Source: Callorhinchus milii (taxonomy: Eukaryota). Taken from it: a stretch of 64,000 bases of DNA. The notes under the pieces are model-generated. The model was given only the letters and a program-made list of their open reading frames with translations, was not told the origin of the DNA and made no database searches. Every line of letters starts with the position of its first letter. Position 1 is the stretch's first letter. The stretch covers positions 129,644,001-129,708,000 of the forward strand of contig NW_024704742.1 of NCBI RefSeq assembly GCF_018977255.1. The letters are read 5' to 3'. Positions 2,133 through 29,778 of this stretch are shown piece after piece. Both the position numbers and the translations under genes were made by a program.

Positions 2133-2649
2133 TGGAGTGGGATTTACTCTCTCCCTAAAGGCTTACGTTGTGATTTGATTCTGATTGTGACAGGCAGTAA
2201 AGCAGTGTGAAGTAAACAAGTAACTCTTCTCTCAGAGTCTCCTTCATCAGTAGGAAGGCAGAAAATCCAAATACTGCAAAATCAACAAGGGATTAACAAG
2301 CACTTGACAAACACCACAAGAGCCTTTCCTCTGGGATATTTTTAAACGACCACTGAATGTACCACAGCGCAGTGGGCGAGTCTCTCAAACAAAGATAATT
2401 CAGTGACAGAGCTACTTTATGGACAGGAAAGTGTTAGGAAGCTGAATTTGGTGAGTGGGTGCCACACATCAGCCATTTGTGTTTCTGTGAAGTTGCCTCT
2501 GGAAGATGAGGAACTGACTCCCCAAGGAGTTCTGAAGTAAATGATAAATGTTTCTCACACTTAGATTGGCACCTTCCATCCTCTCACCCCAACCCCCAGA
2601 CCAGGAGGTTTGAGTTAAAGGAACATCAGATGCAGAAATACTGAGCTCC
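2133..2649 (+). repeat. Inverted-duplication block A, left copy (partner 23081-23594, reverse complement)
   Basis: Direct reverse-complement match. The same spurious peptide (QTSWSGGWGERMEG...) appears on opposite strands in the ORF track. Confidence 0.95.
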
Positions 2650-2833
2650 CATGTAAAGCAGGTCAAGACCTCCACAGAAAGAGGTTAATAGTATTGAAAC
2701 GTGAGAATCCACCAAACCACCTTGGGACTGATTTCCGCTACTTGTTACTGGCGTTGTTGAATGTGTTGCACTCCTCACTATGCTAAGCAGGGAAACTTTA
2801 AACAGTAATAAATTTGCATTGGTGTTAAATACT

Positions 2834-3180
2834 AATAATCTTTGCATTTGGTATATTATAGTGCCTTTCATGTCGTGAGGATGTCCCAAAGTGTTTCACA
2901 GCATATACTGTAGTTTGAGGGTGAATATAGCAGCCAACTTGTGCACAACAATATTCCCCAAATTGCCATAAAGTGAATGACCAATTTTATTTGGGTGATT
3001 GTTGACCAGGACCCTGGGAGAAACTCTCTTCTCTTTTTAAATAGTGCCATGAGATCTTTAACATCTACCTGAACAAGCAGACGGAATCTCAGTTAGCATC
3101 TCATCTGAAGGACAGCACCTCCAATAATGCAATACACTCCCAACGCAGCATTGAAGTGTCAGCTTAGACTTAATGTGTTC
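2834..3180 (-). mobile_element. Older DeuSINE-like element (longer body containing ...ggatgttaaagatcccatggcactatt...)
   Basis: The shared body also appears at ~4165-4490, 12480-12800, 17460-17720, 18480-18770, 22820-23075, 47730-48040 and 53350-53625. Confidence 0.7.
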
Positions 3181-6100
3181 CAACAACTATGACGACAACA
3201 ACAACAAATTACACTTGTATAAAGCCCTTCACGTCCGATAGACGTCCCAGGGTCCTGGACAATTAGGGTTTTTTGGCCTGAGCTGGGAGTTGAGGTCAGA
3301 AGGGGTGGAGGGCAGGGGGTGGTGGGGGTGGGAGGGTGGCCGAAGGCAAGAGAGGGGTGAAGCAGAGGGCTTGCGGGATAGAGTTCCAGAGTGTGGGGAC
3401 AGAGATGCTGAATGTCCGACCACCAATGATGGGGCGGGAAGTGTGGGGCCCTGAAGCAGGCCAGTGTCCACCGAGCGGAGGGAGCAGAGAGGCTGATATG
3501 GGGTTAGGAGGTCGGAGAGGTAGAAGGGAGCAAGACCGTGGAGGGCTGTGATGGTTCCAAATCCCGACATAAGGTATGAACCCACAATTTTCTGAGTCAG
3601 AGGCAAAAATGCTACCAACTGTGCTCAGCTAACACACAAAGCCTTGTGTGCTAAGCTCTCAGAGGGAGTTATGTTATGAGGAAGGCCTGCCTGGAGCTAT
3701 GAGAACAGATTCCCCACTGGTTTATTGGGTAAATGTACCAATCGAGGCAGGTCTTAGCCTCATAAACCAACAGCTTGTAGCCTTGGGGGGCAGCAGTTGA
3801 TGCTAAAATTGGACTGAGTTAAAAGTGCCCTGCATTAGGAGAAAAGTCAGCTACATTTGATTTATGTAACATTTATGAGCGTCCAAAATTTGGAAAATTG
3901 TTGAATTTGTTCTTTCAACTCAGTCTTATGTCGTTCTTAAAATAATTCACACAAAACTTCCTTATAAATTAAGGCTGTACTTAAGAATTAGACAAATTCT
4001 GGATACTCTGAAAAGCTGCATAAATAGAGTCAATCTAGAGCTTGGCGAAATTTCTCCCCTTTCTCTCCTTTCCTGTTAGCTATCTAGCTAACTTCCCTGC
4101 TGGAAGATTAAAGGGCGAGGCTCATGTTGGGACTTTGAACTTTCCTGGCTGTTACACCAATACAGCGCTGCATTGTCAAAGGTGCCGTCCTTCAAACGAG
4201 ACATTTCACTGAGGTCCCAGCTTCCTGTTCAGGCGGACGTTAAAGATCCCAAGGCATAATTTAAAAAAAGAAGGCAGTTTCTCCCAGTGTCTTGGCCAAC
4301 AATCCCTCAGATAAAATTGAACATTCACTTCATGGTTGTTTGCAAAACATTGCTGTGCGCAAATTGGCTGTTGTGTTTGGTTACATAACACAAGATCACT
4401 ATACTTTACATTCGATATAGCACCTTTCATGTCGGGAGACCGTCTCAAAGCGACGTACAGGATTTTACTGCAAAGTGTCTATTTTGTAGGTGAACGCATG
4501 AACTAACAGATATCTTGGTCGAAGCGCAATGCTCTAGGTTACAGCACATCACATGGGAGTATGAAAGGGGAGGAGACTGTGGCAACACAAACAGAAATAA
4601 CAAAGGAGCCAGACTTGGAGACTCCTGGCAGAGAAGCAGGAGACACGGAGTTCTGTTTTATTACAGTGAGGAATTTATCAATTTCGTGGTGACTTGCTGA
4701 CTTGAGCCAGTGACTCAAACAGCTTCGGAAATAAAAACGAACAATCTTACAGGTGCAAAGGAAACTTCCGTTCCATTGGCGGTGAGGCAAAAATAACTCC
4801 GAGAACATAAAAATATAGTTTAAGTCAAAAGGTTATGTCAGATGAGAATTGTGTGGGTTTGTTCGTGGTGTATTTGTTAGTGGCTCCAGCCCTATCTTGC
4901 TTCAAGCTGTTTCTCCAGATAAGGACATGGACCTCCCTTGGTGCCATATTCTTTCCACCAATTTTGCACGAAGGATTCGTTTAAGTTTGATCTGAATCTT
5001 ATCTCCTGAGTGTTGAAGAATGTTGGTTCTTAATGTGATCTCATCAAGCTAATGAGACCCTCGGCAACCCCTAATTATTTTTTACCTGATTTTTATCTTT
5101 CTCTTCGACCGTGCCTTCAGCTCCCCTCTCGACTCTCTACCCCCTCCTCGCTCCCTCCCTTCCCTCCCCTCACCCTGACCATTTCCCCCCTGCTCAGGTC
5201 CTGACCCAACTGTCCAGCACCTTGGGACGTCCTTCCGAAGTGAAAGGCGCTCTATAAATGAAATCTTGTTGTTGTTGTTTATCTGAAAGGAGCAAAAGCC
5301 CGGTTGGTCAGAACTTTTGGTATAAAATCGAGAGGACCTGGGTTTGATTCCTGAGCGGGGCAAAACCTTAGGCAAGTTTCATTACTCCACAAGCCTCTGT
5401 TTACCTAGCAGTAAGTAGGAACCCGGTTGTTATTCGATTTGGCAGATCGCTTTTCCGGGGATAATAATCCCCAAAAAAACATATTTGGTCACTCAATCCA
5501 AGACTGTTCGTGGACACTGCTGATCGCAATTGGTTGTCACCTTTTGCCCACAAAATATACAGTCAATTCACTTTACACATATATTTTGTGAAGCGCTTTG
5601 AGACGTCTCGATGATGTGATAAGGCGCTATATTAAATGCAAAGATTATTATTATATTGTTAAGAATGCTGTGTTTAAGTTCATTACACTCTTTCTACACT
5701 TAGCCTTTACTGTTAAGAAACATCGCATCTCTTACTCTGACCTTTCAGATCTATTCCTCTTTGTCCGCCCATCAAAGTGGATCTTAACCATCCCTGTTCG
5801 AAAATGAGTTTTTCCCGGGATCTTGGCCATCAATACCCAAGATAAAATTGGTCATTAACTTCATGGCTATTTGGTGGACTCCCTGTCTTACCTCGTTCAC
5901 ACTCAATCACTCACCTCATCAAGCTCCGTTTGCAGACGGACCTCTTTGACTCAGCTATCGATCATCTTTCCCCTCCCCGTTCTACTCCACTCAGCAAACA
6001 CCCCCAGCTCGGGTACCCAGCCAGTATTATTGAACACTTTGGGATATCCTCCCAATGTGAAAGGCATATAAATATAAATTTGTACTGTATTGAATTGCTG

Positions 6101-6506
6101 TGTGTAAATTGGCTGTTGAATCCTCAACAATATTCAATCACTACTCTTTACAGTAAAATCCTTAAAAACGCTTTGAGATATTTCTATGCCTTGATATTAA
6201 ATTGATATTAATTTGCTGTATTAAATCCAAGCATGGTTATATTATTATTTTATTAAAGGGTAGATCACTGCTTCAGGGAGAGAGAACATGCAGAGACATT
6301 GCACCGTTTTCATAATAGTGGTTTTGTTGCAAATGTGATGCAGTGATTTCTCCAGTGAATTATGTAAATTGACAAGCACTTGCCACTGCTGATAAAAAGC
6401 GTTTTTAAACTGTCTTGTTAACCCAAACCCTGCATTGCAGCTTGTCTCCAATCTGCCTACTGAATGCAATCAAGGAAGACAACAGGTCTGATCAACTTAC
6501 AAAGCT

Positions 6507-7856
6507 GAACCATGTTAAACCTTCACTTGTGAAACCCATAACAAATCTCTGGACTCTCCACTGCTGTTCTCCTCCCTGTAACATTTTAAAGCCTTTACTC
6601 ACTGGAGACTGGATCAAACTCCTGCTTTCAAAAGGCTTGTGTTTTCACTGATACACTCGAGTGCCTCTCAAGACACCCGGAGCCTTGTTCTGACAGGACT
6701 CTTCTCTTGTTCTAATTCCTCCCTCACTGATTATGAGGAAGCAGCAGGAAACGTCCTCTTTCAAGCAGGTTTGAGCTACAAATTGTCCCTTTGGAGAAGA
6801 CAACTTACACCCCACTGTCTTTATCCTCCTTAAAGAGACCCTGGTCTTCTCTATAAAAGATTCACAGCATCCGATGAGAAGCTTAAGGAATTGAAGGATT
6901 TGCACCTTACATTCGAATATAATGTTCATCTGAACAAACCAATTAAACCACTCTCCTCAAGGCAGACAGACTGCCTTCATACATCCCTTCATCTCCATCT
7001 AACCCCAATTATTGACAAGTTTAAGTTAGTTCATCAACCTGTGATTTGTCAGAATTTAGGATACTCCAGAACTAAATTAAGTCAACTCATGGTTCATGTT
7101 AAGAATTGTATGTTTTTTCAGACATCTGGGGTTTCCTAACATATAATTACAGTAATAATAATCCTTGTATTTGATATATTTTCAACCACAAAATACACAG
7201 TCAATTCACTTACAATATATTCTGTGAAGCGCTTTGAGACGTCTCAAAGATCTGATAAGGCACTATATGAATCCTCTAGTTCAGTGGATAGAGCACTTGC
7301 CTTGCAAGCGAGAGACCTGTGTTCGATTCCTGGCAGGGTGAAACTCTGGGCAAGTTTCCTTACTCCACACGACTGTTTACTTAGCAGTAAATAGGAACCC
7401 AGTTGTTAGTCAATTGGCAAATCGCTTTTCTGGGGGTAATAATTCCTTCAAAAAATAAAATAATAAATTGTTATCTCAATCCACAAGTGTTTGTGGGACA
7501 ATGCTGTGTGCAATTGGCTGCCATGTTTTGCCCATAAAACATACAGTCAATTCACTTTATAGTATATTCTGTGAAGCGGTTTGAGATGTCTCAGAGACGT
7601 TATAAGGCGCTATATCAAAGGCAAGGATTATTATTATTGTTGTGTAGCGCCTTATCACGTTGTTGAGATTTCTTGAAGCGCTTCACGGAATATATTGTAA
7701 AGTGAATTGATTGTGTATTTTGTGGGCAAAACGCGGCAGCCAATGTTTTTCTCTGAGGTAGTTTGGAATAATTATCATTTATTCAAGCATAAAAAAAATT
7801 GCATTCCTTTAAGCTCATGGGCCTTTCCCTGCTACTGATTCACCCAGATTCCACCC
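6507..7856 (+). repeat. Inverted-duplication block B, left copy (partner ~21697-22435); interrupted by SINEs at ~7145-7742
   Basis: Near-identical core 6510-6900 vs 22055-22435. More diverged homology at 6900-7142 and 7743-7856 vs 21697-22055. Confidence 0.92.
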
Positions 7857-8644
7857 TGTCCCACACACTTGTTGAAAGACAGTTTGGTGCCATGTGAAAG
7901 GCTAAATACATAAGCAGTGGGTGAAAAGATAACAGTGAAAGCTTGTTTGGGGTTTGAATGTGAACAGCTTTGTTTGACCTGGGCAGATACCCTCCAGTTT
8001 CAGAGGTAATTATTTGCCGAGTATCTCTTGAAAGTCGCATTGCGTCAAGGCTACATCTGTGCAATGTGTGTCCTTCAGCAAACGTAAGCTTTGATTTTCA
8101 TTTGTTTCTCTTCTGTGTCAGCGTCACTCTGCTAGAGCAAACATTCCACAGCTCCTTGATCCCTTTCTCCTAACTCTTAACACTATGGTTTGATTTCTCC
8201 ATCTTTGCTTTGAAGCAAAATCAGACTGTCCTGAACACATGCCCTTCAGAATGAACCAGTCATATTTAGAGCCCTTCAAAAGATGCCAGAAAAGGGCTCA
8301 AAAAAAACTTGCATTTATATACAATGATAATAATATTTTTTGCATTTGATATAGTGCCTTATCACGTCGTTGAGACATCTCAAAATGCTTCTCAGGATAT
8401 GTTGCCACATTTAGTCCACAAAATATAGTCAATTCACTTTACAGTATATTCTGTGAAGAACTTTGAGACGTCTCGAAGATGTGATAAGATGTTATATCAA
8501 ATTCAAGTATTAGTATTATTATCATTTAGTTTATCTTTTTGCAAATTGGAATCAGGAACTGGATCTCTTAATAGTATTTCCTTCCATTAAAAATTACTGC
8601 AAAACTCAGCCCCCAGATTTATTCATCATTTGATTTCCACGTTT

Positions 8645-9850
8645 GCGGTCGACACAAAGTTAGATACGGTGGCCATCTGCAGGAATACATAGACAGAATG
8701 GTAAAATGGTCAGACACATAGCAGATGAATTTCAATGTGGAGAAATGCGAGGTAATGCATTTTGGTAGAAAAAATGAGGGGAGGCAATATAGGCGGGTAA
8801 TACAATCTTAAGGGGGGTTAAAGAACAGAGTACCTGGGGGTGCAGGTAAATGAATCCTTGAAGGTGGCAGGACAGGTAGATAAGGCTGTAAAAAGGGCAA
8901 ATGGGATTCTAAGCTTCATAAATGGGGCATAGAGTACAAAAGTCAGGAGGTTATGATTAACCTGTATAAAACACTGGTTAGGCCTCAGGTAGAATACTGC
9001 GCCCAGTTCTGGGCACCACACTATAGGAAGGATGTTAAGGCATTGGAAAGGATGCAGAGGAGATTTAGAGTCCTGTAGCTCAGTGGTTAGAGCACTCGCT
9101 TTGCAAGCGAGAGACCTGAGTTCAATTCCAGGCAGTAAGTTTCCTTACTCCACACGCCTAATAATAATCCCTCCAAAACCAAAAACAATAATAAATTGGT
9201 CATTTTCAATCTACGACTGTTTGTGGGACATTGCTGTGCGCAATTGTCTGCCGCGTTCGCCCACAAATATACAGTCAATTCACTTTACAGTGTGTTCTGT
9301 GAAGCGCTTTGGGACGTCCTCCCGACGTGAAAAGTGCTATATCAAATGCAAGGATTATTATTATTATTATTATTTACGAGGATGGTACCAGGAATGAGGG
9401 ACCTTGATTATGAGGAAAGGCTAGGGAGGTTAGGATTATTCTCATTGGAGCAGAGAAGGTTATGAGGAGACCTAATAGAGATCTTCAAAATCATGAAGGG
9501 ATTTGATAGGTTAGAAAGGGAAAAACTGTTTCCACTGGTGGGTGTGTCGGTGACTCGAGGTCACAGATTTAAAATAGTCTCTAAAAGAAACAGAGGGGAG
9601 GTGAGAAGAATTTTTTTCATACAGCAAGTTGTTCGAATCTGGAACGCATTGCCTGAAAGGGTGGTGGAGGCCGATTCGATAACAACTTTTAAAAACGCAG
9701 TGGACGGGTATTTGAGGAGGACGGGTTTGCCGGGTTATGGGGAAAGGGTTGGGGAGTGGGATTGACATTACATTGCTCTTTTCAAAGAGCTGGCACAAAC
9801 TCGATGGGCCGAATGGCCTCTTTTTGTGCTGTACGATTCTATGATTCTAT
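8645..9850 (+). mobile_element. CR1-type LINE 3' fragment (degenerate RT C-terminus and 3' UTR) with a nested SINE at ~9068-9372
   Basis: Translates to CR1-like YKTLVRPQVEYCAQFWAP and MKGFDR...RIWNALP, and ends in a gattctat repeat tail. Confidence 0.88.
9068..9372 (+). mobile_element. tRNA-derived SINE with Deu-type core and L2-like tail, young internally deleted subfamily
   Basis: A box tagctcagtgg, B box gttcaattcc, core tgtttgtgggacattgctgtgcgcaatt and a (tta)n tail. A near-identical body lies at ~39438-39692. Confidence 0.88.
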
Positions 9851-12800
9851 ATAAAGAATTGGTGCACTATCCTTGTGCTGGAAATAGTTCCTCTTATGTT
9901 CAGTAGGAATTCTCATTTTACAGGTTAGATAATAAAACTCAACTAACTGTGGTGTGCTTGCTTTGTGGATGTTGACTGTGTTTAGATAAGGATTAAGAAG
10001 CTGAGAGATGGTTAATGATCTGACTGATTGAAAACAACTGAAGACAAAGCTAAACTCAGGTCAAGTTTACAAAGCTTGTGACAACACCAAACCCCATGAC
10101 ACAAAAAACTACATTGAAAGGTACATATGACTACCTATTTGCTGAACTCAACAACAACAACCTGCATTTTATATCAAGCTTTTTACATCTCGGAGGGATT
10201 CAGTCTGAGGTCAGACACCAAGAAGGGGCAGGGGGAGGTGAGACTTTTAACCCACCTGAACCGGCAGGTAGGGCCTCGATTTAACATCTCAGCCAAAGGG
10301 GCCTTGGTTTAATATTTAATCTGAAGGACGGCACCTTTGCCAATACAGAACTCCCCCAGCACTGCACTGTAGCATCAACCTACACAATTAAGCCAATGAC
10401 TTCCCTCCATTTGCTAATTCATCACAGATCCTTTATTCTTGATTGCAGTGAAATCTGGGAAGTATGGTCACTGCAAATAAAACTGAGTGACACTGAAAAT
10501 AGCAAGCAGAGAATTGTAGAGAATTCAGAATAAGCTATACTCAGCTAAACCTTTTTTTGAGGTTTTTTCCCCCCTTTTTCTCTAAATTTCCTACACGCCA
10601 AGCTTCACTGAGCTCATCTTGATTTGAAACCTCTGGGAAGAGAGAGCATGCTTAGAGATTTCTAACTCAACTACTTGAGGTGACTAGAATAAAACAATGC
10701 CGCATGTTCAATAGTAAACCATTGCTCATCTTAACTAAGTGGTTTAGATAGATTGATTGATGCTTATTTCATAAGATTGATCAAAATAAATGTTCTTACG
10801 GGAAAGTCAGCTGACAATTGAATAATGGGTTCAAGCCCCACATCAGGACATTGAGCTCATAGTCTAGGCTGACACTCCAGTTCAGTCCTGGGGGACATTG
10901 TCAGAAGCGCCGTCCTTCGGATGAGATATTAAACCGAGGTCCCGTTTGCTAACGCCTTCTTTTTTTAATATTAAAAAAATTAACTTGATAGTCCACTATG
11001 TCCTCTTCTGCATTCCCTTTATTTTTATTCGGGTCATTCCGAAATCAAATGTCAATCTAAACTCACTTCAATTTCAAGCGGTGGAAATAAAAAGGAAACC
11101 TTCACACATCGGAAATCTGAACTAAATAAAATAGAAAAGGCTGGAATTGCAAAGCAGGTCGATCAGGTTCTGAAAAAGAAAGAGGAGAAGGTTAATGTTT
11201 TAATGAGATCATTTACCAGATATGGAACAATTGGGCCTGAGAAATCTATTAATAGGATGGAAGAGGGAAATCTTGAATGTAGAAGTAATCTGATTTGTTT
11301 GAGTGGTTACTTGGCCCCAGAACTTCTTACATAAACTAACAATTGCTGAGAAAATGTTGGAATGTAAACCTCCTGCCTGAACACATTTTCTTCCCAACTG
11401 TGTTGAATGAGGATAAAGGCAATCAACGGACGGAGAGAGCTAATGATTTATAACAGTCCAAACTTGCTATACAGTGAAGCAGAAACACTTTGTTGTTTAC
11501 GTTTCTCAGCCTTAAAAAGTCAGCCTGGCTCAGTTGGTAGCTCTCTCACCTCAGGGTCAGAAGGTTGTGGGTTCAAGCCCCAACTCGGGACTTTGAGCTT
11601 ATGGTCTTATGGTCTCAGGTGAGATGTTAAACTGGTCTTATCTCCCGAAGAAGCTCTAGAAATTCACTGTGTGAAAGTACTGCCTTGTTCTCAGGAACCT
11701 GACTCACAACTGCAGTTGGGTATCAGCGCCAAAACAGGCACCTGTGAGCGGAGAGGTTTCTGGGGTCACGAGTACATCCACGAGGAGTGGCAACCCTGAC
11801 CCTTCAAACCTAAGGACTTTTGGCTCATTGCAACAACTCGATTACTTCTCTTGCTGAGATCAGCTAACTCACAACAGATTAAACCTGGCTACCAGTCACT
11901 ATGGTCGAGTGCGATACTGGACTGTACTTAGAACATGTGCTGGTATGATAATAATAATCCTTGCATTTCATATAGAAACCTTATCATGCTGTCGAGACAT
12001 CTCAATGAGCTTCCCAGAATATATAGTAAAATAATGCAGCTGTGTGTATTTGGTGGGCGAATGGTACCCAGGGATGGTAAGAGCTGCTTACCTGCAAACC
12101 ACCAGCCCAGCAATGAATTTTCCAGGAGATTACATAAGGCATCACTCTCACGTAGGGAGCAGCCTGCTCGCTGTATGTTGTCTTCCGTATAACATCCAAA
12201 GAGGTAACAAACTGAAACACAAGCCTATAGAATATTAAAGGCATCATGGTATCCATGGGTGGGAAAGCCTACAGCCCCTCATTATCTCCCACTGGAATTT
12301 CATTTGAGTCACAGTCATTTCGATCATTTTCGAGCTGTACCTCACCAGAGTGCTCTCAGATACTTTATACTTTATAAGGTCGTGGACCCGAAACGTTGAC
12401 CCACTTTCCTTTCTCCATAGATGCTGCCTGACCTGCTGAGTGTTCCCAGCGGCTTCTGTTTTTGTTTTATACTTTACATATTGCATTGTCAGAGGTGCAG
12501 ACCTTCGGATGAGATGTTAAACCAACCAAGTCTGCCTGTTCAGGTGGATGTTAAAGATCCTATGGCACTGTTCGCAAACCGAAGGTAGATTCTCCCAGTG
12601 TTCTAGCCAACAATCCTCCAAATATAATTGGTCACTTATTTCATAGCTGTTTGTGGGGCATTGCTGTGCGCAATTATGCCTCTGTGTTTGTCTACAAATA
12701 CACATTCACTCCATTTCACAGTAATTCCTGTGAAGCGCTTTGAGATGGCCTTCCGACGTAATAAGGCACTATATCAAATGAAAGGATTATTAGTATTATA

Positions 12801-13325
12801 CTGCTTTATAATAGAATTTATACCGCACAGTCACTTGCCACTTGAGGTGGAGGTGAATTTGATAAGAAATCCGTGAGCTGCTGTTACAGAAACTTAATTC
12901 TTAAGGGACTGGGGCTTTGAAAGTGCAGTAAAACATTTTGCTATCTGCAGATTTGGTGGAAAAGATGGAATTTGAATGGGCCATTTCTTTGTGTGTTAAT
13001 GTAGAAAAAGAGATGAGTGTGTTTTGTTGAGCCAGTTGACTTGGGAGTGTGGAGGCGGGGATTTGGGGGTTGAAAGGCTTTGTTGGAAGCTCCTGGAGGT
13101 GAGAAGTGACTAATAATTGCTGAGTGTTTGAGAGTCTCTGTTTGGAGAATGGTCAGAATGTAGCTCAGAAACCCTGCACATCCGAGCAGAGACCAGATTC
13201 CAGGCTCACACTGCACTGCACTGAGATCTGAGTGGAGCTGCTGAGATTTTGGGGAGTTTCTATTGTTTATTTACAGGGCGAACAAATAAATAACTGTAGA
13301 GGATCTCTGGCGTTTGGACCTCAAG

Positions 13326-13348
13326 ATGAATTATACAACAGCGACCCG
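13326..13348 (+). CDS. tdgf1: EGF-CFC family protein (Cripto/TDGF1/oep-like), coding exon 1 (MNYTTAT-R)
   Basis: ATG at 13326 (aagATGa) and donor gtgagt after 13348. Its phase 2 end joins exon 2 to form a signal peptide. Paralog identity (TDGF1 vs CFC1 type) is not resolved. Confidence 0.75.
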
Positions 13349-13450
13349 GTGAGTTAAGGATCCTGGAAATCGATCTGCAAAATAAAAAAAACTTTGGATC
13401 TTCGTAACAACTTCTAGATCATCATTGTATCCCGTTGTGTCTTGTTGCAG

Positions 13451-13500
13451 GTTCCTCTGCACCGTGCTGCTGACTTTGAAAGCTGTGCTGATGGGCTCAG
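13451..13500 (+). CDS. tdgf1: EGF-CFC exon 2, hydrophobic signal peptide core (FLCTVLLTLKAVLMGS)
   Basis: Acceptor ttgcag and donor gtaagt. 50 nt, phase 2 to 1, frame consistent with the neighbouring exons. Confidence 0.85.
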
Positions 13501-13723
13501 GTAAGTGATAGAAAATTAAATCAGCCCCCGATTGTTTTGCCAAGGGATCAAAATGGTTTAAACTCTAAACTAATCTATTCATTTAAAGTCTGTTCAATGT
13601 TATGGGGGCGTTCCTCATCCCACCCCCCACCAAAAAGAGCAATGTCAATCCACACTGAAGGTCTGATGTAAATTAATAATAATTTATTATTATTTTATTT
13701 TGATGATGATGATGTCTGGTCAG

Positions 13724-13909
13724 TTTCGGGCTGTGAAGATCCCGGCTGCGAAGGTGAAGATCTGTCAAGATATTCTGATCAGAAGAAGACGGAGACAACT
13801 CGCGGGTCTGCTTTAAGGCAGTTTAATCAGCTCAACACCAACAGGCGCACGGAAAGCCGAAAGTCCAGAGGGCGAGGACCCTTTATACCATTCATTGGGC
13901 TGACAGACA
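13724..13909 (+). CDS. tdgf1: EGF-CFC exon 3 (VSGCEDPGCE...GPFIPFIGLTD)
   Basis: AG/GT-bounded 186 nt open exon. It ends in PFIGLTD, resembling the PF(V/I)GLT segment that precedes the EGF motif in fish oep and Xenopus FRL-1. Confidence 0.88.
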
Positions 13910-16900
13910 GTGAGTAACACCAATAATAATAATAATCCTTGCATTTGATATAGTGCCTTATAGCATTGTCAATATGTCTCAAAAGTGTTTCACAGGATAT
14001 ACTGTAAAGTGGATTGACTGTATGTTTTGGGTGAAACAAGTGATATTAAATCTCAACAGTACCCCCTGGTGAATGGTCAGCGAGGAGCAGTGGCACAGTT
14101 GCAACAGTTTAAATCTTGTCCACAATTTTTTTAAAACAAAAGCTAATTCATGTGGAAAATTTGACTGTAATGATTATTGATTATGTAGTCCGAGCTGGAA
14201 GGTTGTGTTGTGTTATGAATGTGTGTGTGTGGAGTAGGGAGGGGGACAACTTTGAATATTTAGAGAGAAATTTGCAATATTTAAGTATAAACTTGACCCA
14301 GGTTTAGTTTCAGGTTTTTCTTCTCTTTTCACCCCCCTTCCTGTCCCTCCATCTCTCCCTCCCTCCTACCACCAATAGATCAATCTCTAGTGCTTTTTTA
14401 ATCCTTATACAAATAAACACTGGCTTTACTAAGCAAACCTACCACACTCTCTCAGTTTTATTACTTAACCCCTAAAGTGTTGCCATTCGCTTGTGAATGA
14501 ATGAACAAGGGAATCTTAAGCTAGAATAGAGGATGCTGATTGACTACTTATGAATAATTGTCACCTATACTTTCCAGCTGGTAAATAGAAAAGTTGTATT
14601 GAAAAGTGATTAATAATAATAATCCTTGGATTTTATCTAGTCATTGAGACATCTCAAAGAGCTTCACAAAATAGGACTGTATATTTTGTCGGTGAAATTG
14701 TGAACTTGTTATGAATAACAACTTGCTTTGAAGGTGAGGATCCTCACCTTCAAAGCCCTCCATGGTCTTGCTCCCCACTACCTCTGCAACCTCCTAACCC
14801 CCTACTATCATGCTCGCTCCCTCCACTCAGTGGGCTCCAGCCTGCTTCACGCCCCCGCATCACTCGCCCCACTATTGTAACTCCATCCCACAGTCCCTCC
14901 ACCTCGTCCCCTCCCTTGCCTCCTTCGAGACCCGTCTCAAGACAACTTGCATTTATAGTTCCATGTATGTACATAACCATCACTTCATTTCCCTGTGGTT
15001 TGAATGTGCACTCTCTCCCTGGAGGGATGCACCCTGCTTGCCTAATTACAGTATAAAGTGCAGATTGGTGAGAGCCAAGGCTTGGGGACCGCAGAGTATT
15101 CGCTAGAATACTGCTGGAATCTAACCAGCTAAAACTACATAGCTTACCATAGAGGACACTATCTGGCAAGCTTCCGATTGCTTGGCCAGCTAAAACCCCT
15201 GTACCCTACCCAGAAGAGTTTTGGCTTGCGTGATTATCAGGATCGAGTGAGAAGAACCCTGTCCACTAAGTTCTGGCAATAAGCTACGCGGATTGGTCAG
15301 CCATCAGCAGTGCCTTGGAGTACTGGCTTAGGAATCTAGACTACCTTGGATCATCAGGACCACCACAGAAGATTGACAATTCTGACAAACACGTCACATT
15401 GGAGCCAGCTCAGCCTCAAGGAGACCCCTCTAATCTCCCACCCTCCTGGAGAATAAGTGTTTTGATGAAAAAAACCTAGAAAATATAAATAATGAGTGGC
15501 ACATTATAATATAAAACAAAAAGTTGATATGGAAAGAATGATAATGAGAATAATCCTTACATTTGATACAGCGCCTTATCACATCTTCGAGATGTCGCAA
15601 AGCGTTTCGCAGAATATACTGTAAAGTAAATTGAAGGTATATTTTGTGGGAGAAAGAAAAATTAAGGTTGCTACACGATGGTTCATCACAAAGCTTATAT
15701 GTTGGAAATTCTATAATTTATCAGTTTAAAAAGGAGGGAAATATAATGCTATTGAAGCGCTCCAAGACACTACCCTGTGTGAAAGTCGCTATATATATGC
15801 AAATTGTTGCTGTTGGTCTTGTAATGAAGTTAGCCAGTACTTAAACTAAAATAGAATTTGATTTGTGGTGGTGTAAAGTTGTTTGGATCAGCTCTCTGAT
15901 ACTTGGCTAAATTGCTTCTTTCAGTTCACTAATAGTGTGTTAAAACCTCATCAGAAGAAGCAGGATGGATTTCACACTGTTTAAGTGAACCTACCATCTG
16001 GAGTTCAACTCTCCATCTGATGTCATTGGTTGTTAACATTTCAAAGCACCAGAATATTTGCCCCACCCAGATTATAGCAATAATAATTTTGATGTAGAGT
16101 CTTTCTTGTTGTGAGAATATCTCAAGCGTGCTACACAGGATATAATGTAAAGTGTGGTGACTGGGTATTTTGTAAGCCAATTTGCACCCAGTAATATCCC
16201 TCAAACAGCCATCCAGTGAATGGCCTATTTTATTTGAGGGATTGTTGGTCAGGACTCCTTTCACCTTTCGGTTAGTGTCATGGCATCTTCATCATCCACC
16301 TGAATAGGCAGATGGACCTCTGTTTAATAACAATAATAATAATTTTTGCATTTGATATAGCACCTTATCACATCATTGAGATGCCTCAAAGCGCTTCACA
16401 GAATATACTGTAAAATGAATTGACTGTATATTTTGTGGGCGAAATGCGGCAGACAATTGAACACAGCAGTGTCCCACACACAGTCGTGGATTGAGTAGTC
16501 AATTGTTACTATTTTTTTGAAGGGATTATTACCCCCCGGAAAAGCGATCTACCAAACGAATAACAACCGGATTCCTACTAACTGCAAGGTAAACAGAGGC
16601 ATGTGGAGGAAGGAAAACTGCCCAAGATTTCGCAATGCATGGGAATTGAACCCGGGTCCTCTCGCTTCTGAGGCAAATGCTCTAAACCAATATGCTACAG
16701 GGCTCCAGGATTCTTAATGCCTCATCTGAAGGACTGCAACTCCAATAATTCAGCGTACCCCCAACATTGCATTAGAGTGTCATCTTTCTAAAGCAATGTA
16801 AAACCGAGGAAACATCTGTCTGTTCAAGTGAATGTATCCAATGGCACTGTTCAAAAAGAGAAGGGAGTTTCTCCCAGTGTCATGGCCAACAATCCCTCAA

Positions 16901-18046
16901 AAAATAAAAAAAAGTTCATTCACTTTATGGTTGTTTATTATTAGTAGCATCTAGATTATTTGAGTTCAAAGTGCCAACGCTGGTGAACCCATAATCTTCT
17001 GACTCGGAGATGAAAGCGCTACCAACTGAGCCAGGCTGTCACCAATGGTTGGGAGAGACGATTTAATAAAGGTCTGACTGGGGTTCAACTGAGGCATACA
17101 GATCAGGAAGGACCTAAGGCTTCCTCCCCACTTCCCCCATTTCTATCTCTGCTGAGCTGGTTGATCTCAGCTGGGGTGATGGTTGGGAAGCTACAATTAA
17201 CCTTAATGCCCGTGTGTTAGTGAAGAGGAGAATGAGCTTGGATTTTCTCTCCTGCCCATGTGACTGTCTGAAAATTGCACACGTGTGGACTTTGGAGAAG
17301 GACAAGATAACATTTGACTGTGATATCCTCCTTATTTGCAAAGCCTGCTAACACACTCACATTTATGGGATCACACAACAGAATGGCTGCTGGATCGATC
17401 TTATGGACCAACACGGAAAGTCCTGTGATGGGAAAAAACTGCCCCATGAATTTAACAACAATAATAATAAGAATCCTTTTGTTTGGGAGGACAACCCAAT
17501 GCGCTTCACAGGATATACTGTAAGATGCAGTGACTATGTGTTTTGTGGGTAAACGCGGCAGCCAATTTGTCCACAGTAATGTCCTACAAACAGCCATGAA
17601 GTGAATGACCAATTTTTATTTAGGGGGATTATTGGCCAGGACACCAGGAGAGAGAAACTCTCTTCTCTTTTTGAATAGTGCCGTGGGATCTTTACCGTCC
17701 ACCTGAATTGGTTTAATGGGACCTGGGTTATGCATATCATCCAAAGGATAGATTTAGCAACAAGCCATGCCCATTTCCACAGATTCTTGTTTAAATAAAT
17801 ACCAATCCCGTAAATCTTTAATCTCTTCGATTCCTTGTCAGGGAAGATAGATGAGTTATATCTGGGCACATATTTATTCCACTTGAACATGACGTGTAAA
17901 TCAACTGTGAAATCTACTATCAGATGATCATATAAAAGTTCAGCTGAGGATATTGGTCCGCAGTCAGGGGAGGAAGGGAGAAAATTAGAGAAAATTATAT
18001 TTACAAGCAACTTCTGATTAATTTCTCATTTCCCTTCACCTCCCAG

Positions 18047-18161
18047 GTAGCAGACTCAACAGGAATTGTTGTCAGAATGGAGGCACTTGCATCCTTGGCA
18101 GTTTCTGTGTTTGTCCAAAACACTTCTCAGGGAGAAACTGTGAATATGATCAACACATCAG
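18047..18161 (+). CDS. tdgf1: EGF-CFC exon 4, variant EGF-like domain ([38 protein letters not shown])
   Basis: Diagnostic CCxNGGTCxLGSFCxCP...GRNCE pattern of the EGF-CFC family. Canonical cccag and gtgagt boundaries. Confidence 0.97.
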
Positions 18162-18839
18162 GTGAGTTGAACTGTGAATGGCAGGGTCACAGCGGGGTGG
18201 GAGGAGGATGTTGCTGATTAACAGTAGCAGTACCCCAACACACCCTCTGGAGTCCTCAAGACTTGGCTCTTGACAACTTCCTCCTAATAGTTTCCAGGGT
18301 GAGGTAAACAGAGTTTGTCCTTCAGGGAGAGATTGCACCCTCTATTCCGGACTAAGGGAAATCTCCCATGTATATGAGGAGCTCTCAGTCTGGTTTGGAT
18401 ATTCTTAAGCATTTCAATGAGTTTGCACATGTGTTAAGACACCCTGCTAGCTCAAAAAGTCTTAAAGCATTTCACAAGCATTTCACAAGTAATTGTTATT
18501 TGCAGTAGGAAATGTGTTTGTGAGCAAATATGGAGGCCAATTTGCATATAGCAATGTCCCACAAACAACCACGAAATAAATAACTAATTTTATTCGGGGG
18601 ATTGTAGGCCAGGACACTGGGAGAAACTATTCTCTTTTCAAATACAGTAGTGTCATGGAATCTCTGATGTCTACCTGAACAGGCAGATGGCACCTTGGTT
18701 TAAAGTCTCATTTGAAGGTGGAACCTTTGACAATGCAATATTCCCCCAGGACTGCACCTAATGGCCAGCCTGTGAGCTAAGAGTTACATGTTAGCAGTTG
18801 GTACTACATGGTCCTCGATCTTGCACTCTCTCCTAACAG

Positions 18840-18946
18840 GAACTGTGGCAGTATTCCCGAGGGAGCCTGGGTTCCCAAAGGTTGTACGTGGTGCAGGTGC
18901 GTCTATGGAATTCTTCACTGTATTGAAGGAAAGCAGGACGACTGTG
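18840..18946 (+). CDS. tdgf1: EGF-CFC exon 5, CFC domain (NCGSIPEGAWVPKGCTWCRCVYGILHCIEGKQDDC)
   Basis: Six-cysteine CFC pattern with the conserved Trp. Boundaries taacag and gtaagg, phase 2 to 1. Confidence 0.96.
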
Positions 18947-20007
18947 GTAAGGAATCATAGACTGGATTCTGGTTAAATTTCGTAACAAAGCAGATATTCA
19001 TTGATAAGCTCATTACACGATCACATTAATTTGATGAGTTTTTATTGCTACTAATGTGTTCCTCCTGGAAGAGAGTGCACATTACATTCCTATGCACAGG
19101 AATCCATGTATAGTTAAGGTGCAGGGAACACTCAGTTTGGTTTGGATACTCTTAACCTGGTGATTGGGTTTCCGCACGTCAGACACCTGATTGACCCCAA
19201 AAAAACTGTGCTGTAAATTTCTATGATTCTCTTGGGAAAGAGGAATTAATATGTAAGCAATAAAATTATTACATACATATTTTATTATTATTATATGTAT
19301 GTAAGGCTGTAATATGTATATGTAACATGTAAGGCTTATTGGGTCTAATCTTTCTGAAGAGATAAAGAAACTCCTTTACCCAAAGCTACCCAAAGGTTAA
19401 GGTTTGCATTTTTTATTCCAATAATGTGAAGCTAAGTTTTATTTCTTTTTAATGCCCCTAAAACTTATTGAAAGTTAGTGAAATCCAAATGGGCCATGAC
19501 AAATGCTGGTCATCCAGTCTGAGGAGCTCCTGTCGGGTCTGGATACTCTGAAGCATAGCGTTAGGTTTCCACGTGTGTCATAACTAAAAATATTGTGGTG
19601 AAACATATGATAAACATTTGCTGTATCAATCACCTTGCTGAGTTGCCTCAAAGCGCTTCATACAATATACTGTAAAGTGAATTGACTGGATATTTTGTGG
19701 ACAAAACGCAGCAACCAATTGTACACAGCAATTACAAAAAAAGCAGTCATGGATTTTGTGACAAAATTATTTATTTATTTTTGGAGGGATTATTACCCCC
19801 AGAAAGCGATCCGCGAATCAACTACCAATCGGGTTCCTACTGACTGCTTGGTAATAGAGGCGTGTGGAGTAAGGAAACCTGCTTAAGGTTTCGCCCCGCC
19901 GGGGAATCGAACCCAATTCTTCTCGCTTGCAAGACAAGCGCTCTAACTAATATACTACAGGACTTCACAATAGCTTTGTTGAACAATTCCTTTCTTTTCC
20001 GATTCAG

Positions 20008-20129
20008 ATCCTGATTCACAAGAAGATCTCCAATATTACCAGTTGGTTTCTCACGGTTCCCAGCTGCTCTCAGCGAGATTCTTGCTGCTGCCTGTTCCGT
20101 TCCTTGCTGCTGCCTTCTTTGGTTTATGA
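20008..20129 (+). CDS. tdgf1: EGF-CFC exon 6, C-terminal GPI-anchor signal (DPDSQEDLQYYQLVSHGSQLLSARFLLLPVPFLAAAFFGL*)
   Basis: Polypyrimidine tract plus cag acceptor and a hydrophobic C-terminus ending at TGA 20127-20129. Total CDS is 603 nt (200 aa). Confidence 0.9.
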
Positions 20130-21696
20130 CCTTAAGCCGCACGCCCTTCACAAGGTGGAAAGTTACTGTGGCATCAGCTGGTTCTGTTGCACAAAACATT
20201 GAAATACTGGGCTTCATTGTGGAAAAGAGATTATCTCCTGACACCATGGGCAAGAGGATACTCAGGCCATCAAAATTAGGCAACATTGTCCTCTTTTGTC
20301 CCCTTCACTGTGAATTATTGTGGTTGTGCATCATTATTATTGGGTCTGTCGTCCTAGAAATGTGCTAGCAATTTCCCTGTCCTCTTACTGACCATCTCTG
20401 TGTGTGGGGGGGGAGGTGGGGGTTGGGCATCAGGAGTTTTGTAACTTCCCTTGTTGAACCAGGGAATTACATACAAGCCGATTGGAACATGCTGCAGTCT
20501 GACCTTGCCAAGAAGGTCTTAGATCTTAGCTCTTCTGTTGTTTGAGTTTCATTGTATTGGTATGTGACTTGTAATATTGCTGGATACTGTATCTCTATAA
20601 TAGTCTTTAAAATTTTATTTAAGATGTAAATAGTTCACTATGATACTATTCATTAATTATAATATTATTTATGAGAGTTTTGATCATTCTGTATCTGATT
20701 TAGTTGTCTTTTATGGAGTAAAATCTTTGTTATGTTTATTTATTTCCCCCAATTCTACACCCAAAGCTTCTCCTGGCCAAGAATAGGAGAGAATGCTTTA
20801 TTCTTAGAAGGAATAAGGTAGATTAACTCATGCTACATGTTGCTTGGGTATTGTAAGAGTAAGTATTCCATTTGGTGTCTTGGAAATTGCCTGCAAATTA
20901 TACAGTTACCACACAATCCAGAAAAATCCTGAGAGATATCTGACAAACGCAGTGAATTTTTGTGGTAGATATATATATCCACATAAGCCATTTTGCATTT
21001 TAAAAATTGATCAAAGGATGCATGAGATTGTTGTTGCGGATGGAGAATACAATGGAGCTGATTTGGTGTTGAATCCATCAGTCAGCTTGTTATATATTAT
21101 ACGGGCACCCATTCAAAGCAATGAAATCAACTGTACATTGGACATTATGCTTTATGTAATTCACTTGATAAGAGTGATCATATTCTGGCGAGTTTCAGAG
21201 CCTCATACTTTGATATTATGTGGTAAAATTAATAATTGGCTTTCAGTATGAAATCAAAAAACTTGTGATAACAGTGAAGTATGATTGCTCTGAACTGACT
21301 TTATTTTAGTTCTGGATCATAATAATAATCCTTGCATTTGATATAGTGCTTTACCTTGTTGTTGAGATGCCTCAAAGCACTTCTCAGAATATACTGTAAA
21401 GTGAATTGAGTATATATTTTGTGGGCGAAATGCGGCAGCCAATTGCGCACAGGAGTATCCCGCAAACAGTTGTGGATTGAATGACAGAATTTTTTTTTTT
21501 TTGGAGGGATTATTGCCCCTGGAAAGGGATCCTCCATTCGACTAACAACGGGGTTCTTAGTTACTGCTGGGTAAACAGAGGCACGTGGAGTAAGGAAACC
21601 TGCCTATAATTATGTCCGATCCAAAGTTCTGAAAACTCTCAGGTTGATGAACTCTCTGAAATACACCATTAAATGGGTTTAGAATGAGATGAAGGG

Positions 21697-22435
21697 GTGG
21701 GTGGAATCTGGAAGCAGCAACAAGAAAGACCATTGAGTTTAAAGGAATGTGAATTTATGTTTGAATAAGTGATAATTATTCCAAACCATCTTAGAATAAA
21801 CATAGGTTAGGAAACCCCCAGTGTATTAAAAAAAATCATACATGAGACATAATGCCCTGAAATTACTTTATTTTGTTCTGGAGCATCCAAAGTTCTGACA
21901 AATCTCAGATCGATGAATTCACTTAAATCCGCCAATAATTGGGGTTAAAACGAAGTGAAGGGATGTATGAAGACATGCTGTCTGCTTAAGGAGAGTGGTT
22001 TAATTGGTTTGTTCAGATGATCGGGTTGCGTTACGTTTGATTGTAAAATGTAAATCCTTCAATTCCTTAAGCTTCTCATCGGATGCTGTGAATCTTTTAT
22101 AGAGAAGACCAAGGTCTCTTTAAGGAGGATAAAGACAGTGGGGTGTAAGTTATCTTCTCCAAAGGGACAATTTGTAGCTCAAACCTGCTTGAAAGAGGAC
22201 ATTTCCTGCTGCTTCCTCATAATCAGTGAGGGAGGAATTAGAAGAGGAGAGTCCTGTCAGAACAAGGCTCCGGGTGTCTTGAGAGGCACTCGAGTGTATC
22301 AGTGAAAGCACAAGCCTTTTGAAAGCAGGAGTTTGATCCAGTCTCCAGTGAGTAAAGGCTTTAAAATATCACAGGGAGGAGAACAGCAGTGGAGAGTCTG
22401 TTATGGGCTTCACAAGTGAAGGTTTAACTTTGTTC
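21697..22435 (-). repeat. Inverted-duplication block B, right copy
   Basis: Reverse complement of 6507-7142 plus 7743-7856. Confidence 0.92.
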
Positions 22436-23080
22436 AAATCTAGGCTTAGTGGAAGCCAGTGTTTGTCTTATTCAGTCTTTAAATTACCTAAATCTTCAGA
22501 CAATTGCTTCATTTACTATACAAAAAGGACGTTTGATTCAGGTAAACCAGTTCCATGAAGTAAATGTTTTTTGGGGGCTATCCATTGGCGATCACTGCAA
22601 ACAATAAACTGTTCCCCATGTTTCCATGAGTTTAATATTATTATGGGATGATTGGCAGTGTTAGTGATCAGTGATTCATAGACAGCTTTGAGAAATATAG
22701 AGAGAGGAGGCAAAAACAGGCGGGAATCATAGAATCATAATTTCAGACCATCATGGCAGAGCTGCGGACCATAACACTTGAATCTTTTCCCCCTTTATTC
22801 CCCTAACTGCTAGTAGCTAGTGGATGTTAATAGATCCCATGGCACTATTTAAAAGGAGAAGGGAATTTCTCTTGATGCCTTGGTCAACAATCCCCCAAAT
22901 AAAATTGATCATTCATTTCATGCTGTTTGTGGGAATACTGTGCACAGATTGGCTGCTGAGATCACCTGCAAAAGACACAGTCACTATACTTTACAGTAAA
23001 TCCTGTGAAGCACTTCCAGTGAGATGTCCTGGCGATGTGAAAAATGATACATCAATTACGAGGATTATTACTTTTTTATA

Positions 23081-23594
23081 GGAGCTCAGTAACTTTGCAT
23101 CTGTTGCTCCTTCATGCTCAAACCTCCTGGTCTGGGGGTTGGGGTGAGAGGATGGAAGGTGCCAATCTAAGTGTGAGAAACATTTATCATTTACTTCAGA
23201 ACTCCTTGGGGAGTCAGTTCCTCATCTTCCAGAGGCAACTTCACAGAAACACAAATGGCTGATGTGTGGCACCCACTCACCAAATTCAGCGTCTTAACAC
23301 TTTCCTGTCCATAAAGTAGCTCTGTCACTGAATTATCTTTGTTTGAGAGACTCGCCCACTGCGCTGTGGTACATTCAATGGTCATTTAAAAATATCCCAG
23401 AGGAAAGGCTCTTGTGGTGCTTGTTAAGTGTCTGTTAATCCCTTGTTGGTTTTGCAGTATTTGGATTTTCTGCCTTCCTACTGTTGAAGGGGACAGAGGA
23501 GAGTTACTTATTTACTTCACACTGCTTTACTGCCTGTCACAATCAGAATCAAATCACAATGTAAATCCTTAGGGAGAGCATAAATCCCACTCCA
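23081..23594 (-). repeat. Inverted-duplication block A, right copy
   Basis: Reverse complement of 2133-2649. Confidence 0.95.
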
Positions 23595-26980: not shown

Positions 26981-27096
26981 ATGATCGAGGTGGTGGCCAG
27001 GCTGCTCCGCGGCCCCGTCTTCCTGACCGGAGAGGTGCTGGAGTGTGTCATCACCTTCAGCAACCCCGTGACAGCCAGATCCACCTCAGCCTCCAG
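26981..27096 (+). CDS. RGP1: RGP1 (RAB6A GEF complex partner 1), exon 1 ([29 protein letters not shown]...)
   Basis: N-terminus recognisable as vertebrate RGP1. Donor gtgaga after 27096. Confidence 0.95.
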
Positions 27097-27098
27097 GT

Positions 27099-27371
27099 GA
27101 GAGAGAGGCCCAGAGAGAGAGAGAGGCCTGAGAGAGAGAGGCCCAGAGAGAGAGAGAGAGAGTGAGGCCCAGAGAGAGAGAGGCCCAGAGAGAGAGAGAG
27201 AGAGTGAGGCCCAGAGAGAGAGAGGCCCAGAGAGAGAGAGAGAGTGAGGCCCAGAGAGAGAGGAGAGGAGAGAGAGAGAGGCCCAGAGAGAGAGAGAGAG
27301 GAGGCCCAGAGAGAGAGAGAGAGAGAGTGAGGCCCAGAGAGAGAGAGAGGCCCAGAGAGAGAGAGAGAGGC

Positions 27372-27410
<39 letters not shown>

Positions 27411-27537
27411 CAGAGAGAGAGAGGCCCTGAGAGAGAGGCCCAGAGAGAGAGAGAGAGAGAGGCCCAGAGAGAGAGAGAGGCCCATAGAGAGAGAGAGAGA
27501 GAGAGGCCCAGAGAGAGAAAGAGAGAGAGAGAGGCCC

Positions 27538-27571
<34 letters not shown>

Positions 27572-27781
27572 GCCCAGAGAGAGAGAGAGAGGCCCAGAGA
27601 GAGAGAGAGAGGCCCAGAGAGAAGAGAGAGCCAGAGAGAGGAGAGAGAAAGAGAGAGAGAGTGAGGCCCAGAGAGAGAGAGGAGAGAGAGAGGCCCAGAG
27701 AGAGAGAGAGAGAGAGGCCCAGAGAGAAAGAGAGAGAGAGGAGGCCCAGAGAGAGAGAGAGGCCCAGAGAGAGAGAGAGGC

Positions 27782-27824
<43 letters not shown>

Positions 27825-27917
27825 CCCAGAGAGAGAGAGAGAGAGTGAGGCCCAGAGAGAGAGGAGAGAGAGAGGCCCAGAGAGAGAGAGAGAGAGAGGC
27901 CCAGAGAGAGAGAGGCC

Positions 27918-27949
<32 letters not shown>

Positions 27950-28833: not shown

Positions 28834-28880
<47 letters not shown>

Positions 28881-29149
28881 CCCAGAGAGAGAGAGAGAGA
28901 GAGGCCCAGAGAGAGAGAGGCCTGAGAGAGAGAGAGAGGCCCAGATAGAGAGAGAGAGAGAGAGACAGAGGCCCAGAGAGAGAGAGAGAGAGGTCCAGAG
29001 AGAGAGAGAGAGGCCCAGAGAGAGAGAGAGAGAGGTCCAGAGAGAGAGAGAGGGCCCAGAGAGAGAGAGAGAGGGAAAGAGGCCCAGAGAGAGAGAGAGA
29101 GAGGCCCAGAGAGAGAGCGAGAGAGAGGCCCAGAGAGAGAGAGAGAGGC

Positions 29150-29185
<36 letters not shown>

Positions 29186-29580: not shown

Positions 29581-29734
29581 ACAACAACTTGCATTTATAC
29601 AGCAAGGTAGCATCTCAGAGCACTTAACAGTGGTGGAGCAGCACACCAATCGAGAGGGTGGGAACCATAAGCATGGTTGAAGAGGACTGTGAGACCCTGA
29701 GAGAGAGAAAGGTCTGAGCCTGCAGGCGAGTCCT

Positions 29735-29778
<44 letters not shown>

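What the first reader, a model, noticed from the sequence alone, without database searches (positions are those of the whole stretch)
2133..23594. EGF-CFC (Nodal co-receptor) gene sits inside a large inverted duplication with near-identical cores
Seen: two blocks are mirrored around the gene. A (2133-2649) pairs with A' (23081-23594), and B (6507-7856) pairs with B' (21697-22435). Parts are almost identical (only a handful of differences by eye over 6640-6900). Contiguous flanks (6900-7142, 7743-7856) are clearly more diverged and are interrupted by SINEs on one side only. The arms resemble none of the other repeats in the window. Inference: this is an old inverted duplication whose cores are kept alike by gene conversion or selection. 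Recombination between the cores could invert the ~14 kb segment holding the EGF-CFC gene (an inversion polymorphism), or the arms could act as paired regulatory elements.
Basis: partly seen in the sequence, partly recalled or inferred. Interest (0 to 1): 0.72.

Follow-up and report, generated by a model that had tools for sequence, protein, structure and literature searches.

The report
Gene-converted inverted arms around Cripto-family gene
Two short, apparently non-coding DNA blocks are mirrored on either side of a Nodal co-receptor gene and have been kept alike within each species by copying between the arms, a known process that could also flip the gene, although no flip has been shown.

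Summary
The mirrored blocks are real. A (2130-2652) pairs with A' (23597-23078) and B (6506-7144, 7740-7856) with B' (22436-21699). Cores are 98-99% identical, flanks about 81%, and the spacers between A and B are unrelated. An EGF-CFC gene (13326-20129; Pfam EGF and CFC) lies inside, and RGP1 follows. Contigs of another individual hold letters of both B copies at low depth, so this is no artefact or interspersed repeat. A related species also has two copies. In the B core, 16 listed sites group the copies by species and none by position (about 2 expected without conversion). Its A cores collapse into one double-depth contig 6.4% diverged from the window, whose own copies differ by 1.7%. This is concerted evolution of an old inverted duplication, most likely by gene conversion, stopped locally by SINEs and indels. 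The mechanism is that described for the FLNA-EMD and yeast flip/flop repeats. Inversion (15.1 kb via B, 20.5 kb via A) is plausible but untested. No coding or RNA-family signal was found, and a regulatory role is only inferred. New member of a known kind.

The parts
2130..2652 (+). Arm A, left outer copy; shoulder 2179-2378 (185 of 196 identical), core 2379-2614 (234 of 236), exact run 2441-2614
23078..23597 (-). Arm A', right outer copy; covered by contigs of organisms B and C at 4-12% divergence
6506..7144 (+). Arm B, left inner copy; core 6584-6902 (310 of 316), inner flank 6903-7144 (193 of 237); TATA-like word near 6852 (12 such words in the window)
7143..7744 (.). tRNA-derived SINE pieces inserted in the left B flank only
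7740..7856 (+). Continuation of the B flank (77% to 21806-21699)
21699..22436 (-). Arm B', right inner copy; core 22051-22370
21619..21699 (-). Extra, diverged copy of an 81-nt piece of the B flank (76% to 6982-7062)
2653..6505 (.). Left A-B spacer, SINE-rich, with no detectable homology to the unique part of the right spacer
22437..23077 (.). Right A'-B' spacer: unique 22437-22819 (matched to 22566 in organisms B and C) plus a SINE at 22820-23077
13326..20129 (+). EGF-CFC gene; coding exons 13326-13348, 13451-13500, 13724-13909, 18047-18161 (EGF), 18840-18946 (CFC), 20008-20129 (hydrophobic tail)
26981..38247 (+). RGP1, the neighbouring gene outside the right arms (ends read by eye)
   Evidence: Pfam Rgp1, E 4e-6 and 1e-3, both below the curated cut-off

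Best explanation
An old inverted duplication placed two copies of a flanking region on either side of the EGF-CFC gene, before the window's species split from organism C. Most of the duplicate diverged or was broken by SINEs and indels. Two islands (A, about 0.5 kb; B, about 0.4 kb) stayed alike enough to pair over 15-20 kb, and non-allelic gene conversion kept resetting them, so each lineage's copies share that lineage's letters. Shown: patchy paralog identity, two copies in two species, species-grouped sites. Inferred: conversion as the molecular route; that the duplication predates the split; that occasional crossovers flip 15.1 kb (B) or 20.5 kb (A). Weakest (about 0.4): that the islands are cis-regulatory modules under mild constraint.
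For: Core versus flank contrast. In run X11 (organism C), two contigs cover the B core at single-copy depth (51.5 and 39.7, against 47-60 for the eight X11 rows of table 5c). One follows the right-specific flank to 22566; the other leaves the right copy at 22350 for 417 letters. Of 24 listed sites in 22051-22345, 16 are type-C (both window copies alike, both C contigs alike, species differ), 0 are type-N, 6 are private to one window copy and 2 to one C contig. All six substitution differences between the window's copies in that span are among the listed rows, so type-N = 0 is complete. Expected type-C without conversion is 0.7-3.3, P(>=16) from 1e-16 to 5e-7 (using the test described in PMC2588116). 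Over 23168-23401, X11 has one contig at depth 89 (about two copies) with 15 differences from the window, whose own copies differ at 4 (Fisher p = 0.017), with two contigs on either side. Paralog flank divergence (44 of 237, 18.6%) exceeds ortholog divergence (about 11%). Theory expects conversion to stop at TE insertions and large indels (PMC3924837, passages).
Against: Only the right arms (2,091 nt) were laid, so the position of organism C's second copy next to the gene is inferred, not seen. Table 3 showed 40 of 170 rows and table 8 showed 32 of 38,482 pieces. Copy number rests on contig depth, and depths in X10 (organism B) are ambiguous (21-76). C's two B contigs stay separate over 355 nt, so they probably share no 31-mer and B is less homogenised there. 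For B the data therefore prove homogenisation only on the window's lineage. Constraint is doubtful: the B core is 9.7-11% diverged between species, like the piece running into the right-specific flank (24 of 257). Mirrored SINEs are not paralogous and the spacers are unalignable, so a single large duplication is not directly seen.
Confidence: 0.76

Rival explanations
1. No continuing conversion: the cores were copied separately and recently in each lineage, by template switching or re-duplication onto older, unrelated flanks.
For: The spacers are non-homologous and the mirrored SINEs independent. The outer boundary of B differs between lineages (22436 in the window, 22350 in C).
Against: The 81% flank is contiguous and colinear with the 98% core. 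Arm A shows graded identity (84, 94, 99%). The same two islands are double in organism C. A one-off templated overwrite of an existing paralog is itself conversion.
Confidence: 0.1
2. The arms are exons of a duplicated small gene pair (coding or long non-coding) facing the EGF-CFC gene, with converted exons and diverged introns. This is compatible with conversion but names a different substrate.
For: Two-block layout with spacers of unequal length. A donor-like site at 2451 and an acceptor-like site near 6591 (by eye). The left + frame of B has the most synonymous inter-species changes (7 of 18), and the right copy's stop at 22152 is derived.
Against: 7 of 18 is not significant (p = 0.14; best of six frames 0.49). 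Organisms B and C carry 1-nt insertions behind 23322, 22350 and 22351. No credible Pfam, Rfam, Atlas or phmmer hit. No unusual RNA fold (z -0.42 and +0.94).
Confidence: 0.08
3. The arms are terminal inverted repeats of a decayed foldback or composite DNA transposon that captured and moved the EGF-CFC gene next to RGP1.
For: 0.5-kb outer inverted arms about 21 kb apart. The gene lies beside RGP1 rather than visibly beside Lrrc2 and Fam240, the usual neighbours in PMC11383694.
Against: Depth over the arms in X1 is 7-50 per bin against more than 1e4 over the SINE, so there is no family of copies at 82% or more. No target-site duplication at the outer ends by inspection. Identity peaks at the inner end of A, not at the termini.
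Confidence: 0.04
4. Purifying selection alone keeps both copies near the ancestral sequence, or the mirror is an assembly artefact.
For: The cores are recognisable in two other species.
Against: Selection alone predicts orthologs at least as alike as paralogs, but 16 type-C and 0 type-N sites were found. X1 holds left-type letters at 22021-22051, 22201, 22247 and 22308 and also the right flanks, and the depth of its A' contig (15.8) fits two copies (16.1 expected). Fold-back artefacts do not give 81% flanks with one-sided SINEs.
Confidence: 0.02

Closest known systems
FLNA-EMD inverted repeats on the eutherian X (HsInv0389; Caceres et al. 2007, not held, known here through passages of PMC9731477 and PMC3961182)
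   Same: Inverted repeats flank genes and are homogenised within species; crossover during conversion flips the spacer.
   Different: Those repeats are many kilobases long and nearly continuous (recalled) and both orientations are documented. Here there are two nested islands of 0.3-0.5 kb and no inversion is shown.
Saccharomyces chromosome XIV flip/flop region (PMC9731477, passages)
   Same: Two inverted repeats 24 kb apart, concerted evolution across species, inversion proposed as a by-product of conversion.
   Different: The 4.2-kb repeats carry a tRNA and two sporulation genes; no gene was found in these arms.
KRTAP5-10/5-11 inverted duplications, HsInv0209 (PMC3961182, passages)
   Same: Older inverted duplicates (94%) with a short near-identical island (782 nt, 99.9%) that is the likely breakpoint.
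   Different: The duplicates include the genes themselves. Here the gene is in the unique spacer and the islands are shorter.
Human CFC1/CFC1B duplication and tetrapod Tdgf1A-C (PMC11383694, text parts 1-2 of 4)
   Same: An EGF-CFC locus with duplication and rearrangement; the authors note frequent rearrangements near these genes.
   Different: There the gene is duplicated; here a single gene is enclosed by duplicated flanks, beside RGP1.

Membership tests
Homogenised inverted repeats (FLNA-EMD / yeast flip-flop type) | Two inverted copies flank unique genes | tested here: met
Homogenised inverted repeats (FLNA-EMD / yeast flip-flop type) | Paralogs group by species rather than by position | tested here: met
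   16 type-C and 0 type-N of 24 listed sites; collapsed double-depth A contig in organism C
Homogenised inverted repeats (FLNA-EMD / yeast flip-flop type) | Both copies lie at the orthologous positions in related species | tested here: inconclusive
   Two copies in X11, one with the right-specific flank; the other's 417 flank letters were not visible
Homogenised inverted repeats (FLNA-EMD / yeast flip-flop type) | Both orientations of the spacer occur | not testable with these tools
   All 24 runs listed are kept as k-mer contigs; no genome is held
Homogenised inverted repeats (FLNA-EMD / yeast flip-flop type) | Arms carry a functional element under selection | tested here: inconclusive
   4.4-12.4% divergence between species with no neutral baseline; no coding or RNA-family signal
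Segmental duplication or sex-chromosome palindrome (definitions recalled: at least 1 kb at 90%; kb-long arms over 99%) | Continuous arm length and identity | tested here: not met
   A is about 520 nt at 94%; B is about 640 nt at 87%
Interspersed repeat or transposon terminal inverted repeat | Many genomic copies | tested here: not met
   X1 depth 7-50 over the arms versus more than 1e4 over the SINE at 82% likeness; copies under 82% not tested
Interspersed repeat or transposon terminal inverted repeat | Target-site duplication | tested here: not met
   Outer ends inspected by eye; age could have erased it
EGF-CFC gene family | EGF-like motif followed by a CFC domain | tested here: met
   PF00008 E 1e-4; PF09443 E 7e-14
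EGF-CFC gene family | N-terminal signal and C-terminal hydrophobic (GPI) tail | tested here: inconclusive
   Hydrophobic ends seen by eye in translations; no predictor run
Tdgf1 at the canonical jawed-vertebrate locus | Linked to Lrrc2 and Fam240 | tested here: inconclusive
   RGP1 and an SH2 gene on the right; a scan with recalled short motifs showed neither gene; only 13 kb upstream is in the window

The most novel reading that the evidence does not exclude
A and B are the distal enhancer and promoter modules of this Nodal co-receptor gene, kept identical on both sides by selection plus conversion. The two nested repeat pairs make a four-isomer invertible cassette in which the gene keeps a copy of both modules upstream in either orientation while the unequal spacers and outer flanks change. 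The arms would then be relics of the event that placed an EGF-CFC gene beside RGP1.
Probability: 0.1. Interest if true: 0.75.

Novelty: new member of a known kind. Interest (0 to 1): 0.42.

Why it matters
It is a clean case of long-lived concerted evolution in very short, apparently non-coding inverted islands around a gene needed for Nodal signalling. It gives a concrete, cheaply testable candidate for the suggestion in PMC11383694 that EGF-CFC loci are recombination-prone. If both orientations exist, or the arms are regulatory, it would link inversion toggling to control of a body-axis gene. Without that, it is a known process at a new locus.

Tried and rejected
No whole genome is held, so genome-wide copy number came only from contig depth. 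Protein-coding arms: Pfam on 16 open frames gave four hits at E 0.07-0.22, all far below cut-off. Word-indexed searches gave none, but a true EGF-CFC exon also gave none, so these blanks are weak. phmmer on the B frame gave 2 hits, both prokaryote-type repeat proteins (Calx-beta, PEGA) whose scores sum weak matches over 5-10 repeats; rejected. Atlas: low recognition, best 0.87 or none. Rfam: only SINE tRNA heads in the window and one E 0.49 hit over the right arms. Folding unremarkable. Expression: no RNA holder listed. X9 (RNA only by guess) gave one 200-nt, depth-3 contig at 21683-21882 and nothing on the cores; no evidence either way. The lack of cover at 21680-21959 and 22590-22729 in X10 and X11 is not used as evidence. 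X1 contig 8 matches A' without differences from 23700 to 23117, then leaves for 380 letters at the end of the exact run, as an inversion junction would; a k-mer graph cannot phase a 174-nt exact repeat and the letters were not shown, so it is not counted. Mirrored SINEs as pre-duplication insertions: rejected (outer pair 67%, twelfth hit). Motif scan: scattered T-box, GATA, Sox and FoxH1-like words with no enrichment test. Row 22244 was dropped before the site count as an indel-placement effect. Earlier findings: none.
Full report
Observation. A self-comparison of the window and targeted alignments confirm two mirrored pairs. A (2130-2652) matches the reverse of 23078-23597. Identity rises from 84% at the outer end to 185 of 196 in 2179-2378 and 234 of 236 in 2379-2614, with a 174-nt exact run, then falls abruptly. 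B (6506-7144) matches the reverse of 21802-22436: 310 of 316 plus a 3-nt indel in 6584-6902, then 193 of 237 in 6903-7144. After about 600 nt of SINE pieces present on the left only, the match resumes at 7740-7856 (77%). The patchiness exceeds chance (permutation p 1e-4 for A; 2e-4 by sum of squares but 0.08 by longest run for B; Fisher 8e-6 and 5e-12). The arms have a single partner in the window, apart from an 81-nt piece with a third copy at 21619-21699. The unique part of the right A-B spacer does not align with the left spacer better than shuffles, and the SINEs at mirrored positions are not each other's best hits.

The enclosed gene. Six coding exons on the + strand (13326-20129, with the start corrected by two bases) encode an EGF motif (PF00008) and a CFC domain (PF09443, E 7e-14). 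RGP1 exons and an SH2 exon lie to the right (the scores of these single exons are below the curated cut-offs). [quoted passage not shown] Whether this gene is a second locus is open: only 13 kb upstream is visible and the paper's Supplementary Table 1 was not seen.

Independent data. No genome is held. A run search with 21650-23700 listed 24 runs: 4 samples of organism A from one study held 0.61-0.67 of the words, and three other organisms held 0.05 each. I laid 4 of the 24 on 21610-23700 at 82% likeness (table 3 showed 40 of 170 rows, table 8 showed 32 of 38,482 pieces). In X1 (organism A) depth over the arms is 7-50 per bin against more than 1e4 over the SINE. Left-copy letters appear at 22021-22051, 22201, 22247 and 22308, and the right flanks are present. 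The depth of the A' contig (15.8) matches 16.1 expected for two copies. An artefact and a high-copy repeat are therefore unlikely.

Concerted evolution. In X11 (organism C) two contigs cover the B core at depths 51.5 and 39.7, in or near the range of other single loci (47-60 in the eight X11 rows of table 5c; 40-45 for two long pieces in table 8). One continues along the right-specific flank to 22566; the other departs at 22350 for 417 letters. Of 25 listed rows in 22051-22345 I dropped one (22244, indel placement). Of the remaining 24, 16 are type-C, 0 type-N, 6 private to one window copy and 2 private to one C contig. All six substitution differences between the window's copies in this span were listed, so no type-N site is hidden. 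With the test described in PMC2588116 (passages), 0.7-3.3 type-C sites are expected without conversion, P from 1e-16 to 5e-7. For arm A, one X11 contig of depth 89 spans 23168-23401 with 15 differences from the window, flanked by pairs of contigs, while the window's copies differ at 4 sites there. Both lineages thus appear to have homogenised A separately. Caveats: copy number rests on depth; X10 is ambiguous; C's B copies are assembled apart and so are probably at least 3% different, which leaves conversion of B proven only on the window's lineage; and the left position of C's second copy is inferred. Paralog flank divergence of 18.6% against about 11% between orthologs suggests the duplication is older than the species split, if rates are similar.

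Mechanism. Most likely, non-allelic gene conversion between inverted arms 15-20 kb apart keeps two islands alike, while TE insertions and indels ended it elsewhere, as reviewed in PMC3924837 (passages). PMC9731477 (passages) proposes that such conversion sometimes resolves as a crossover and inverts the spacer, citing the eutherian X case (that paper is not held). Here a crossover in B would flip 15,148 nt and one in A 20,501 nt, giving four possible arrangements. This step is inferred. The exact runs are short (174 and 60 nt), so flips may be rare. One X1 contig leaves A' exactly at the end of the exact run, which is what either an inversion or assembler simplification would give; it is not counted.

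What the arms are. No protein or RNA family was found; the two phmmer hits are repeat-summed artefacts. The best reading frame in B has 7 of 18 synonymous changes, not significant, and relatives carry 1-nt insertions in both arms. Divergence between species is 4.4-12.4% across twelve pieces, lowest in A. B is no better conserved than the piece running into the right-specific flank, so constraint is not shown. Contigs of both relatives run on unlike the window beyond 22566 (151 and 341 letters). A TATA-like word lies in the B core and an acceptor-like site precedes the start codon, which would fit a distal promoter, but 12 such TATA words occur in the window. I put a regulatory role at about 0.4.

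Novelty. The process is known from FLNA-EMD, the yeast flip/flop region and KRTAP5-10/11 (PMC3961182, passages). What differs is the small size, the nesting of two pairs, and the lack of any gene in the arms. Five searches found no paper describing these repeats or an EGF-CFC gene beside Rgp1; I saw listings only for most hits and passages of 10.1101/288530, and most subscription papers are not searched. Verdict: real, explained by a known mechanism, function and inversion open; new member of a known kind, interest 0.42.

Noticed in passing
window 13326-38247: The EGF-CFC gene lies directly upstream of RGP1, not visibly beside Lrrc2 or Fam240; it may be a second or relocated EGF-CFC locus.
   Followed up: partly
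window 43006-43119 (-): Cysteine-rich exon with a weak VWC hit (E 0.002); resembles MSMP, the usual neighbour of RGP1 (name and synteny recalled).
   Followed up: partly
window 55241-55327 and 58694-58879 (-): Exons of an SH2-domain gene (PF00017 E 1e-3), by recall HSH2D/SH2D7-like.
   Followed up: partly
window 27099-29832: A 2.7-kb GA-rich tandem array in the first intron of RGP1.
   Followed up: no
window 26048-26812: Minisatellite of GC-box-like units just upstream of the RGP1 start.
   Followed up: no
window 9160-9372 and 39480-39693: Two nearly identical SINE 3' halves by eye, suggesting a young subfamily; the first interrupts a LINE fragment.
   Followed up: no
window 23117 (run X1, contig 8): The contig follows A' without differences and departs for 380 letters at the end of the exact run; an inversion junction or an assembly path.
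   Followed up: partly
window 22112: All three X1 contigs carry the left-type letter where the window's right copy differs; possibly a polymorphism or a recent conversion.
   Followed up: no
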